Of a DNA stretch of 11,924 bases, positions 3,285 to 3,742 are shown piece after piece; position 1 is the first letter of the stretch, and the number at the start of each line of letters is the position of its first letter. The position numbers and the translations under genes were made by a program. This DNA is from a virus (taxonomy: Duplodnaviria > Heunggongvirae > Uroviricota > Caudoviricetes). Under the pieces are notes generated by a model. It saw only the letters and a program-made list of their open reading frames with translations, was not told the origin of the DNA and did no database searches. The DNA lies in the IMG/VR virus record IMGVR_UViG_2526164647_000012; one strand, given 5' to 3'.

Positions 3285-3315
3285 CCAGAAAAAACAAAAC
3301 CCGCCGAAGCGGGTT
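3285..3315 (-). terminator. Rho-independent terminator of the hok transcript
   Basis: Minus strand AACCCGC-TTCG-GCGGGTT hairpin followed by TTTTGTTTTTTCT; about 70 bp downstream of the hok stop. Confidence 0.6.
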
Positions 3316-3383
3316 AAGTGCGGGTGCGTTGAGGATGCCTGACACATCAGCGGTGGCGAGGGATTTCTCCCCCGCCGGGTCTC

Positions 3384-3539
3384 TTACTCCTCAGGTTCGT
3401 AAGCTGTGAAGACAGCGACCTCCGTCTGGCCGGTTCGGATTCGTACCTCGCAGAGGTCTTTCCTCGTTACCAGTGCCGTCACTATGACGGTTAAACAGAT
3501 GACGATAAGGGCGATTAACATCGCCTTTTGCTGCTTCAT
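3384..3539 (-). CDS. hokD: Hok/Gef-family type I toxin (HokD/RelF-like, 51 aa)
   Basis: Translation MKQQKAMLIALIVICLTVIVTALVTRKDLCEVRIRTGQTEVAVFTAYEPEE; single TM helix plus conserved periplasmic Cys-containing tail typical of Hok; RBS GGAGAAG upstream. Confidence 0.85.
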   Translation of the reverse strand: MKQQKAMLIALIVICLTVIVTALVTRKDLCEVRIRTGQTEVAVFTAYEPEE

Positions 3540-3596
3540 AGCCTGCTTCTCCTTGCCTTTCGGCACGTAAGAGGCTAACCTACATGTGTTCAGCAT
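3384..3596 (-). CDS. mok-like upstream reading frame (19-codon in-frame leader MLNTCRLASYVPKGKEKQA fused to hok)
   Basis: ATG at 3596 opens a 70-codon frame in-frame with hok, matching the mok/orf69 arrangement of chromosomal hok loci. Confidence 0.5.
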   Translation of the reverse strand: MLNTCRLASYVPKGKEKQAMKQQKAMLIALIVICLTVIVTALVTRKDLCEVRIRTGQTEVAVFTAYEPEE

Positions 3597-3660
3597 GGAT
3601 TGAGCCTCAGATTAATGTTAAGCGTCTTGCAGGACGCGTAATGTTAACTGGGGCTTTTCT
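3553..3660 (+). ncRNA. Putative Sok-type antisense RNA with its promoter (-35 TTGCCT, -10 TAACCT)
   Basis: Plus-strand -35 TTGCCT (3553-3558), 17-bp spacer, -10 TAACCT (3576-3581), antisense to the mok start region; stem-loop GCGTC-TTGCAG-GACGC downstream; 3' end not defined. Confidence 0.3.
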
Positions 3661-3714
3661 CTATCTGCCTTTTGGTGTTCATGCCTGAGACAGATAGCCT
3701 CAAGCACCCGCAGT

Positions 3715-3742
3715 CATTCTACTTAACTAAGATTTCCCTGCA
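3715..3742 (-). promoter_or_regulatory. Putative hok/mok mRNA promoter
   Basis: Minus strand TTGCAG (3742..3737), 16-bp spacer, TAGAAT (3720..3715); predicted transcript begins about 3708 with GGGUGCUUGAGGCUAUCUG..., resembling the 5' end of hok mRNAs. Confidence 0.45.

What the first reader, a model, noticed from the sequence alone, without database searches (positions are those of the whole stretch)
3285..3742. Apparently complete hok/mok/sok-type type I toxin-antitoxin locus inside the prophage remnant
Unlike K-12 hokD, which sits downstream of relBE, this Hok gene has its own promoter, an in-frame 19-codon mok-like leader, a predicted mRNA 5' end resembling hok mRNAs, a terminator, and an antisense Sok-type promoter. 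The Sok -10 reads TAACCT; my recollection of the plasmid R1 Sok promoter is TATCCT, which would make this a weaker variant. If Sok is under-expressed the locus could be toxic or conditionally active; if intact it may stabilise the prophage remnant. No relBE remnants are visible upstream.
Basis: partly seen in the sequence, partly recalled or inferred. Interest (0 to 1): 0.45.

Follow-up and report, generated by a model that had tools for sequence, protein, structure and literature searches.

The report
Complete hokD/hokW-type hok-mok-sok toxin-antitoxin cassette
This is an ordinary, sequence-complete copy of a well-known small toxin/antisense-RNA "addiction" cassette (hok/mok/sok) that most E. 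coli and Shigella carry in lambda-like prophages, and its supposedly weak antisense promoter is the normal, experimentally validated form for this subgroup.

Summary
On the minus strand at about 3744..3288 lies a full hok/mok/sok type I toxin-antitoxin cassette. It has its own promoter, a hok-type 5' UTR (Rfam RF01794, 118.9 bits), a 19-codon in-frame mok leader and a 51-aa Hok identical to K-12 HokD. It also has a 5'-3' tac/fbi pairing, an intrinsic terminator and a plus-strand Sok gene (about 3588-3658).

K-12 hokD shares only the part from 17 nt upstream of the hok ATG to the terminator. It lacks the promoter, mok start and sok, and gives no Rfam hit.

The locus is not new. The same 458 nt occur at 100% identity in E. 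coli FDAARGOS_944 and S. flexneri. At least 80% of it is present in 3927 of 5426 complete E. coli genomes. It is 94% identical to hokW/mokW/sokW of phage 933W/Sp5, annotated in the 933W GenBank record AF125520 and shown experimentally to be a type I TA system in 2021.

The Sok promoter (TTGCCT-17-TAACCT) is base-for-base that of the functional sokW. TAACCT is found in 90 of 91 related loci. Its total consensus match (7 of 12) equals that of R1, so under-expression of Sok is not supported. What the cassette does in this degraded Shigella-type prophage is untested.

The parts
3716..3744 (-). hok/mok mRNA promoter: -35 TTTGCA (3744..3739), 17-nt spacer, -10 TAGAAT (3721..3716)
   Evidence: Only sigma-70-like site found in 3200-3850. 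The TAGAAT -10 is present in 79 of 83 scored related loci. It sits where the R1-type TATGAT lies relative to the mRNA 5' end.
3698..3711 (-). mRNA 5' end with the tac element (GCGGGUGCUUGAGG); inferred transcription start at about 3711-3709
   Evidence: The Rfam model starts at 3709. In the minimum-energy fold these 14 nt pair with the 3' fbi element. The R1-type mRNA behaves the same way in a control fold.
3661..3697 (-). First 5'-UTR hairpin (CUAUCUGUCU x AGGCAGAUAG)
   Evidence: Predicted and matches the first helix of Rfam RF01794. A compensatory A-U to G-C change occurs in 4 related loci. The 5' arm can instead pair with tac, giving the local hairpin seen in folds of the truncated RNA.
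3650..3658 (-). ucb / anti-SD box (AAAAGCCCC)
   Evidence: AGCC (3655..3652) pairs with the GGCU of the mok SD region in the full-length fold. By inspection, AAGCCCC is also complementary to tac GGG(U)GCUU. Its position corresponds to R1 A70-C72.
3588..3658 (+). Sok antisense RNA gene (about 71 nt): single-stranded 5' tail complementary to the mok SD and start codon, long hairpin, U-rich tail
   Evidence: Coordinates transferred from the 933W sokW annotation. It differs from sokW at one position, in the apical loop, and is the commonest Sok variant, 64 of 87 loci. Fold -31.2 kcal/mol, z = -5.5, first 9 to 13 nt unpaired.
3553..3581 (+). Sok promoter: -35 TTGCCT (3553-3558), 17-nt spacer, -10 TAACCT (3576-3581)
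   Evidence: Identical to 933W/Sp5 sokW. The Sp5 primers YO-597 and YO-421/422 carry and mutate this hexamer, with loss of antitoxin function. TAACCT occurs in 90 of 91 loci. The simple scan did not flag it because the -10 matches only 3 of 6 consensus positions.
3605..3608 (-). mok Shine-Dalgarno GAGG, 8 nt upstream of the mok AUG
   Evidence: Read directly from the sequence. The motif and spacing are the same in the R1-type locus. It lies inside the region covered by Sok.
3384..3596 (-). mok reading frame (70 codons, ATG at 3596), in frame with and ending at the hok stop codon
   Evidence: Translation. The 57-nt offset matches the R1-type locus, hokW and hokC. The 70-codon frame is intact in 83 of 87 related loci. 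PHROG 251 'MokW-like host killing', E 7.7e-33.
3384..3539 (-). hok toxin gene (51 aa, identical to K-12 HokD); SD GGAG at 3552..3549
   Evidence: Pfam PF01848, E 3e-23. 100% amino-acid identity to K-12 HokD. RefSeq annotates the identical DNA as hokD.
3355..3376 (-). Stable 3'-UTR hairpin (GGCGGGGGA-GAAA-UCCCUCGCC); predicted 3' end of the processed, translatable mRNA
   Evidence: 9-bp helix present in all folds. Its position corresponds to the GGCGGGC...GCCCGCC hairpin that ends the 361-nt R1 truncated mRNA. Processing itself is inferred.
3320..3334 (-). fbi (fold-back inhibition) element CCUCAA-C-GCACCCGC
   Evidence: Pairs with tac over 6 + 8 bp around one bulged C in the minimum-energy and centroid folds. 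It is conserved in 81 of 87 loci; the only paired-position variant seen opposite a changed tac is a G-U wobble.
3288..3315 (-). Intrinsic terminator of the hok mRNA (AACCCGC-UUCG-GCGGGUU plus U-run)
   Evidence: Terminator scan. It is shared with K-12 hokD and present in 49 of 87 related loci; the 933W type has a different 3' end.

Best explanation
The region is a structurally complete hok/mok/sok type I toxin-antitoxin cassette of the hokD/hokW subgroup that travels in lambdoid prophages. Here it sits in a degraded prophage next to tRNA-Ser in a Shigella flexneri-type chromosome.

Shown here:
- All sequence and structure elements of the family are present and intact.
- The Sok promoter is identical to that of the experimentally validated sokW, and the Sok RNA differs from it at one loop position.
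- The Hok protein is identical to K-12 HokD, which is toxic when over-expressed.

Inferred from the R1 hok/sok and Sp5 hokW/sokW work:
1. A moderately strong promoter makes a stable mRNA of about 420 nt. Its 5' tac element is locked to the 3' fbi element, and its mok SD is sequestered by the ucb box, so the mRNA is neither translated nor bound by Sok.
2. Slow 3' trimming back to the 3376..3355 hairpin removes fbi. The 5' end refolds and the mok SD and start codon are exposed.
3. The short-lived 71-nt Sok RNA, made from TTGCCT-17-TAACCT on the opposite strand, pairs with this region through its single-stranded 5' tail. That blocks mok translation, and with it the coupled hok translation, and triggers RNase III cleavage.
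4. If Sok synthesis stops, through loss of the DNA, transcription shut-off or prophage or phage events, the stable mRNA pool is translated and Hok damages the inner membrane.

In this remnant the most likely consequence is passive retention of the region as a selfish addiction-type module. A possible side role is in phage or stress responses.
For: - Rfam RF01794 matches full length at 118.9 bits. That is as good as K-12 hokC (118.3) and better than hokW (113.5), hokB (109.7) and the R1-type locus (87.2), while the K-12 hokD region gives no hit.
- Hok: Pfam E 3e-23, identical to K-12 HokD, which served as a toxic control in a recent survey.
- The mok frame and its 57-nt offset match R1, hokW and hokC.
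- tac/fbi pairing and mok-SD sequestration appear in the minimum-energy fold (z = -8.4), with the same architecture as the R1-type mRNA folded as a control.
- The Sok promoter is identical to sokW and the Sok RNA differs at one position. sokW RNA was detected and neutralises HokW, and mutating this -10 abolishes protection.
- 94% DNA identity to the annotated hokW/mokW/sokW of 933W.
- The 70-codon frame is intact in 83 of 87 related loci, and Sok is the majority variant.
- At least 80% of the locus is present in 3927 of 5426 complete E. coli genomes.
Against: - Nothing was measured for this copy: no transcript, processing or toxicity data.
- RNAfold does not predict the open tac/ucb conformation for 3'-truncated versions. 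It also fails to do so for the experimentally established R1 mRNA, so this is uninformative.
- Native chromosomal hokA, hokB and hokC loci were reported not to mediate post-segregational killing or rifampicin activation (summarised). Sequence completeness therefore does not guarantee activity.
- The only trigger shown for hokW (RecA-dependent prophage induction) may no longer exist in a remnant that has lost its early region.
- Covariation among these close relatives is thin: one compensatory pair and some G-U changes.
Confidence: 0.87

Rival explanations
1. The cassette is sequence-complete but physiologically silent. It is transcribed and kept fully repressed, or poorly processed, so it never kills or stabilises anything in this host, and it persists only because it was recently inherited with the prophage.
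For: Native chromosomal hokA, hokB and hokC loci failed post-segregational killing and rifampicin tests according to the literature summarised. Deleting hokW-sokW had no growth phenotype without prophage induction. The surrounding prophage is degraded: the integrase is frameshifted and the early region deleted.
Against: No inactivating change is visible in any element. The same Hok protein is toxic when expressed. The mok-hok frame is conserved in 83 of 87 loci and Sok is nearly invariant, which argues for continuing selection on the subgroup as a whole. The close relative hokW-sokW is active from its native locus after induction.
Confidence: 0.2
2. One reading: the TAACCT -10 makes Sok under-expressed, so this copy is leaky or conditionally toxic compared with R1-type loci.
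For: TAACCT matches TATAAT at 3 of 6 positions, against 4 of 6 for R1 TATCCT, and the simple promoter scan did not call it.
Against: The promoter is identical to functional sokW. TAACCT occurs in 90 of 91 related loci and TATCCT in none. The -35 TTGCCT is one match better than R1 TTGCGC, so both promoters score 7 of 12 with 17-nt spacers. K-12 sokB and sokC have equal or poorer -10 hexamers, TAAGAT and CACTCT. At least 80% of the locus is found in about 72% of complete E. coli genomes (3927 of 5426), with a median of 2 matching places per genome that has any, which is hard to square with chronic toxicity.
Confidence: 0.04
3. It is a K-12-like hokD relic, meaning a truncated hok without its own regulation that happens to lie near promoter-like and ORF-like chance matches.
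For: The Hok protein and the 3' half of the locus are identical or nearly identical to K-12 hokD, and RefSeq annotates only a hokD coding sequence on the identical DNA.
Against: Similarity to K-12 stops about 17 nt upstream of the hok ATG, whereas the window continues for another 190 nt in full alignment with hokW and the Rfam model. The K-12 hokD region gives no Rfam hit. There is no relBE similarity in the window.
Confidence: 0.01

Closest known systems
hokW / mokW / sokW of Stx2 phage 933W and Sakai prophage Sp5 (GenBank AF125520 annotation; Takada et al. 2021, PMC8621323)
   Same: 94% DNA identity over 417 nt. Gene order is the same, as is the 57-nt in-frame mok leader. The Sok promoter and start are identical, and Sok RNA differs at one position, in the apical loop. 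tac and fbi sequences are the same. Both lie in lambdoid prophages.
   Different: The last seven residues of Hok differ (TAYEPEE here, VDYESEK in HokW). The 3' end differs: this locus has the CCCGC/GCGGG terminator shared with K-12 hokD, which 933W lacks. There are small changes in the first hairpin (a G-U in place of a G-C) and in the -35 (TTTGCA against TTTGCG). The host element here is a non-inducible-looking remnant, so the induction-linked role shown for Sp5 may not apply.
K-12 hokD (relF), third gene of the relBEF operon in cryptic prophage Qin
   Same: Identical 51-aa protein with one synonymous difference. The hok SD, 3' UTR, fbi sequence and terminator are the same. The downstream neighbourhood is the same (DUF968/ydfU and a Q-type antiterminator).
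   Different: K-12 lacks everything upstream of about -17: the hok promoter, tac, first hairpin, ucb, mok SD and start, the Sok gene and the Sok promoter. These are replaced by relE and relB, and hokD is co-transcribed with relBE. The window is the full-length form. The rem gene that follows hokD in K-12 is absent here.
hok/sok (parB) of plasmid R1
   Same: Same architecture element for element: promoter position, tac/fbi fold-back, first hairpin, ucb/mok-SD hairpin, GAGG mok SD 8 nt before the AUG, 57-nt in-frame mok leader, Sok promoter overlapping the hok SD region with a 17-nt spacer, and a 3' protective hairpin.
   Different: It is only distantly similar in sequence. Hok is 44% identical to HokW, and the R1-type locus scores 87 Rfam bits against 119 here. 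Sok is about 71 nt with a hairpin 16 nt longer than the Rfam consensus. The Sok promoter is TTGCCT/TAACCT rather than TTGCGC/TATCCT. A canonical terminator lies downstream of fbi. The carrier is a prophage rather than a plasmid.
hokC/mokC/sokC (gef) and hokB/mokB/sokB of the E. coli K-12 chromosome
   Same: Same Rfam family at similar scores (118.3 and 109.7 bits). The Sok start context is closely similar to sokC (ACATGT|GTTCAGCAT). hokC has the same 57-nt in-frame mok leader.
   Different: They are different paralogues at core-chromosome sites rather than in prophages. Their Sok -10 hexamers differ (CACTCT, TAAGAT). mokB is out of frame with hokB (58 nt).

Membership tests
hok/mok/sok type I toxin-antitoxin family | Small Hok/Gef toxin ORF of about 50 aa, with an N-terminal membrane helix and a conserved C-terminal part | tested here: met
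   Pfam PF01848 HOK_GEF, E 3e-23, 81.6 bits against a cut-off of 22, covering profile positions 1-42 of 42. Identical to K-12 HokD.
hok/mok/sok type I toxin-antitoxin family | Overlapping mok leader frame with its own SD, starting upstream of hok and needed for hok translation | tested here: met
   ATG at 3596 with GAGG 8 nt upstream, and a 57-nt in-frame offset as in the R1-type locus, hokW and hokC. Intact in 83 of 87 relatives. Translational coupling itself cannot be tested here.
hok/mok/sok type I toxin-antitoxin family | hok mRNA 5'-UTR sequence and structure (Rfam RF01794) | tested here: met
   118.9 bits against a gathering score of 59, model positions 1-157 of 157, E 3.4e-27. Known loci used as positive controls and the K-12 hokD region used as a negative control behave as expected.
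hok/mok/sok type I toxin-antitoxin family | cis-encoded Sok antisense RNA: own promoter on the opposite strand, single-stranded 5' tail complementary to the mok translation-initiation region, terminator hairpin | tested here: met
   TTGCCT-17-TAACCT at 3553-3581. The RNA at 3588-3658 folds as a 5' tail, a long hairpin and a U-tail (z = -5.5). The promoter is identical to annotated sokW and the RNA differs at one position. The existence of the transcript in this host was not tested.
hok/mok/sok type I toxin-antitoxin family | Long-range tac (5') / fbi (3') pairing that closes the full-length mRNA | tested here: met
   8 + 6 bp between 3711..3698 and 3334..3320 in the minimum-energy and centroid folds, z = -8.4. 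The same pairing appears in the R1-type control. Among relatives only G-U variation is seen.
hok/mok/sok type I toxin-antitoxin family | Refolding of the 3'-processed mRNA into the open form (tac/ucb stem, mok SD freed) | tested here: inconclusive
   By inspection, tac GGG(U)GCUU is complementary to ucb AAGCCCC. RNAfold of 3'-truncated RNAs instead gives the local 5' hairpin. It does the same for the experimentally established R1 truncated RNA, so the method cannot decide.
hok/mok/sok type I toxin-antitoxin family | Stable 3' hairpin marking the end of the processed mRNA, with slow 3' exonucleolytic processing | tested here: inconclusive
   The hairpin at 3376..3355 (9 bp, GAAA loop) is present at the position equivalent to R1. 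Processing cannot be tested with these tools.
hok/mok/sok type I toxin-antitoxin family | Hok toxicity neutralised by Sok; post-segregational killing or an equivalent phenotype | not testable with these tools
   Literature only: HokD is toxic on over-expression, and hokW/sokW was validated with RNase III and Hfq contributions.
K-12-type hokD (relF) arrangement within relBEF | hok lies immediately downstream of relB-relE, is co-transcribed with them, and lacks its own promoter, mok start and sok | tested here: not met
   No relB or relE similarity in the window. Homology with K-12 begins about 17 nt before the hok ATG. The window has the full 5' region that K-12 lacks.
hokW/sokW subgroup (933W/Sp5) | Close nucleotide similarity, including an identical Sok promoter and a near-identical Sok RNA, in a lambdoid prophage | tested here: met
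   94.2% identity over query positions 28-444. The Sok promoter is identical and Sok differs at one position. The neighbours are lambdoid late-region genes: Q, RusA, DUF968 and phage tRNAs. The Hok C-terminus is of the HokD type rather than the HokW type.

The most novel reading that the evidence does not exclude
The least ordinary reading still open concerns a prophage remnant that has lost its immunity and early region and has a frameshifted integrase. In such a remnant the intact hokD-type cassette may have been kept because it is functional. It could block further deletion of the remnant through addiction. Alternatively it could have been co-opted by Shigella as a stress- or phage-triggered suicide or persistence module whose trigger is no longer prophage induction. 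A further layer could be TadA A-to-I editing of the UACG Tyr47 codon, which would tune toxicity.
Probability: 0.12. Interest if true: 0.35.

Novelty: already known. Interest (0 to 1): 0.1.

Why it matters
It matters little beyond annotation.
- Automated annotation labels only a 'hokD' coding sequence. It omits mok, Sok and the RNA elements, so readers who know only K-12 may assume that hokD is always the crippled relBEF passenger.
- The full-length form is in fact the common one in E. coli and Shigella prophages.
- If this copy is active, it adds one more addiction or abortive-infection-type module to a Shigella prophage remnant and could slow the remnant's decay. That would be a modest, expected result.

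Tried and rejected
1. Folding 3'-truncated mRNAs (ends at 3352, 3350, 3346 and 3340) to see the open tac/ucb form. RNAfold gave the local 5' hairpin instead. The R1-type control behaved the same way, so the test says nothing either way.
2. The simple promoter scan did not call the Sok promoter, because its -10 matches only 3 of 6 consensus positions. I do not treat this as evidence of absence, since the identical promoter is functional in Sp5.
3. A search for relBE remnants in the window, by tblastn and by sensitive blastn with the K-12 relBE region, found none.
4. Covariation among 87 closely related loci gave only one clear compensatory pair, in the first hairpin, and G-U wobbles in tac/fbi. 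The set is too shallow to prove the structure independently. I did not repeat a broad cross-family covariation analysis.
5. The whole window was searched against complete E. coli genomes. No record holds it contiguously; the best covers 66%. The deletion junction was then found in S. flexneri SFBU1023 and in one E. coli genome.
6. Pfam and PHROG searches of the flanking small proteins returned only families of unknown function.
7. I considered whether the in-frame mok was anomalous. It is not: R1-type, hokW and hokC have the same in-frame 57-nt offset.
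Full report
**What is there**

Reading 3100-3950 and translating the minus strand gives a 70-codon frame, 3596..3384. Its last 51 codons, from the ATG at 3539, encode MKQQKAMLIALIVICLTVIVTALVTRKDLCEVRIRTGQTEVAVFTAYEPEE.
- This protein matches Pfam HOK_GEF over the whole profile (E 3e-23) and PHROG 251 'MokW-like host killing'.
- It is identical to K-12 HokD.
- Rfam family RF01794, named 'sok' but modelled on the hok-mRNA strand, matches 3709..3534 on the minus strand end to end at 118.9 bits (gathering score 59, E 3.4e-27).
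- A consensus scan of 3200-3850 finds one promoter, TTTGCA-17-TAGAAT at 3744..3716 (minus), and one intrinsic terminator, 3315..3298 (minus). These bracket the Rfam hit and the ORF.

**RNA anatomy**

The predicted full-length mRNA (3711..3297) folds to -176.8 kcal/mol, z = -8.4 against dinucleotide shuffles. One search lists the helices:
- The first 14 nt, GCGGGUGCUUGAGG (tac), pair with CCUCAA-C-GCACCCGC at 3334..3320 (fbi).
- A 10-bp hairpin follows, 3697..3688 with 3670..3661.
- The AGCC of the AAAAGCCCC box (ucb, anti-SD) pairs with the GGCU of the mok SD region (GAGG at 3608..3605).
- The mok start region pairs with 3'-UTR sequence.
- A 9-bp GAAA-loop hairpin lies at 3376..3355.
- The terminator lies at 3315..3298.

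As a control I folded an R1-type locus whose Hok is 100% identical to R1 Hok. It shows the same architecture, including GGCGCUU pairing with AAGCGCC between the two ends.

Folding 3'-truncated versions of the window RNA gives the local 5' hairpin, tac paired with the sequence just downstream. That resembles the 'metastable' structure described for R1. It does not give the open tac/ucb form. The R1 control behaves identically, so this test is uninformative. By inspection, tac GGG(U)GCUU is complementary to ucb AAGCCCC, as R1 G4-U6 pairs with A70-C72.

**Sok**

On the plus strand, TTGCCT (3553-3558), a 17-nt spacer and TAACCT (3576-3581) precede a start at 3588. That start comes from transferring the sokW annotation of phage 933W. 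The 71-nt product has an unpaired 5' tail complementary to the mok SD and AUG, then a long hairpin and a U-rich tail (-31.2 kcal/mol, z = -5.5). The hairpin is 16 nt longer than the Rfam consensus.

**Is the Sok promoter weak?**

The inference of weakness does not hold, for five reasons.
1. The window is identical to 933W/Sp5 sokW from the -35 through the start. The Sp5 study's probe YO-597 and mutagenic primers YO-421/422 contain exactly this sequence.
2. In that study sokW RNA was detected. The locus with its own Sok promoter was non-toxic, and mutating this -10 made it toxic.
3. A scan of IMG/VR with the flanks fixed and the hexamer left free found TAACCT in 90 of 91 loci, TACCCT in one and TATCCT in none. 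The flanks were required to match exactly, so the sample is limited to close relatives.
4. The -35 is one consensus match better than in R1. Both promoters score 7 of 12 with 17-nt spacers (my count on the sequences).
5. K-12 sokB has TAAGAT and sokC has CACTCT.

**Relation to K-12 hokD**

Alignment A1 shows that K-12 hokD and the window are nearly identical from about 17 nt upstream of the hok ATG to the terminator. Upstream of that point K-12 has relE and relB instead, and hokD (relF) is co-transcribed with relBE.
- The K-12 hokD region gives no Rfam hit, whereas hokC, hokW, hokB and the R1-type locus do.
- The window has no relB or relE similarity.

**How common and how well known**

- The 458-nt query is 100% identical to a locus annotated hokD in E. 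coli FDAARGOS_944. At least 80% of it is present in 3927 of 5426 complete E. coli genomes, and the median is 2 matching places per genome that has any.
- It matches 79 phage records and is 94.2% identical to 933W and VT2-Sakai, where mokW, hokW and sokW are annotated.
[quoted passage not shown] RNase III and Hfq contribute partially, SokW is lost and HokW is produced on RecA-dependent prophage induction, and the locus has a two-fold effect on phage release.
- Among 87 fetched relatives, the 70-codon mok-hok frame is intact in 83. HokD-type (37 loci) and HokW-type (33 loci) proteins dominate, and the window's Sok is the majority variant, 64 of 87.
- Sequence conservation collapses just outside about 3745 and 3297, which marks a discrete cassette of about 450 bp.

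**Context**

The cassette lies in the late-region half of a lambdoid prophage.
- Q antiterminator 832..1575, RusA 1512..1877, DUF968 1878..2936 and a PHROG 1212 gene 2938..3216, all on the minus strand, with four phage tRNA genes at 324-633.
- Upstream of hok is a PHROG 660 gene, 4190..4612 (minus).
- A deletion junction at about 4612-4650 then leads to a truncated DUF4224 gene and a frameshifted integrase (4773-5812) next to tRNA-Ser. mtfA, tRNA-Asn and an IS-riddled remnant of the yersiniabactin island follow.
- No complete E. coli genome in the collection holds the window contiguously.
- The junction occurs in Shigella flexneri SFBU1023, which is 99.75% identical over 674-8661 and has an identical hok locus.

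**Mechanism and confidence**

I take the canonical hok/sok circuit as the mechanism. Identity of the elements is shown here; their operation is inferred from R1 and hokW.
- The main uncertainty is whether this copy does anything in a remnant that may have lost the induction trigger.
- Native chromosomal hokA, hokB and hokC loci were reported not to show post-segregational killing.
- I put 0.87 on 'complete, canonically regulated hokD/hokW-type cassette', about 0.2 on its being physiologically silent in this host, and about 0.04 on the under-expressed-Sok idea.

**Verdict**

This is a real feature, correctly interpreted, and already known. Interest is low.

Noticed in passing
window 674-8661; junction 4607-4660: The window looks like Shigella flexneri rather than typical E. 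coli. The deletion junction occurs only in S. flexneri SFBU1023 (99.75% identity over 8 kb) and in one 4.44-Mb 'E. coli' genome. No complete E. coli record holds more than 66% of the window contiguously.
   Followed up: partly
window 4612-5812: This is a prophage remnant. The PHROG 660 gene (4190..4612, minus) abuts a truncated DUF4224 (xis-like) gene and an integrase split into two frames (4773-5444 and 5345-5812) next to tRNA-Ser (5840-5929). The whole early, immunity and replication region present in the related FDAARGOS_944 prophage is missing.
   Followed up: partly
window 3216-3384: The rem gene, which follows hokD in K-12 Qin and in strain SW070919, is absent here and in FDAARGOS_944. 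Only 168 nt separate the hok stop codon from the next gene, a PHROG 1212 protein of unknown function.
   Followed up: no
window 3840-3977 (minus): An unannotated 45-codon ORF, MKNALQFLFVAFWLFASCMPIIFTARYMEKIDVLILMFGHINALF, is strongly hydrophobic and has a GGGGGA SD. It lies about 230 nt upstream of the hok promoter and is 100% conserved at the protein level in the 15 tblastn hits shown (19 hit lines in all). It matches no PHROG family.
   Followed up: partly
window 3398-3401 (minus), hok codon 47: The Tyr47 codon UAC is followed by G, giving UACG inside a CAG...CUG context that resembles the tRNA-Arg anticodon arm. [quoted passage not shown] The site is conserved here.
   Followed up: no
window 324-633 (minus): A cluster of four phage-borne tRNA genes lies downstream of Q: Gly-UCC, Thr-UGU, Lys-UUU and a CAU-anticodon tRNA that ARAGORN calls Met and RefSeq calls Ile. 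The related prophage in SW070919 carries Arg-Arg-Ile at this position instead.
   Followed up: no
window 7671-11477: A degraded yersiniabactin island lies beyond tRNA-Asn (6921-6996). It comprises an integrase C-terminal fragment (7671-8420), two IS3-family transposase genes (8527..9366 minus, 10659-11477 plus) and a 172-aa MFS transporter fragment (9742-10260).
   Followed up: no
L001 14798-15282 (E. coli FDAARGOS_944; the region is deleted in the window): The intact relative of this prophage carries a RelB-family / RelE-ParE-family pair beside its immunity region. The pair is about 5.5 kb from hokD and on the opposite strand. This may bear on how relBE and hokD came to be fused in K-12 Qin.
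   Followed up: no
window 3534-3709 (minus): Rfam RF01794 is named 'sok antitoxin', but the model matches the hok-mRNA strand: it ends at the hok AUG. Automated annotation from this hit would therefore put 'sok' on the wrong strand and make it too long.
   Followed up: yes
window 3288-3320 compared with L002 (933W): This subgroup has two kinds of 3' end. 49 of 87 loci have the CCCGC/GCGGG terminator just after fbi, as here and in K-12. The other 38, including 933W, diverge immediately after fbi.
   Followed up: partly
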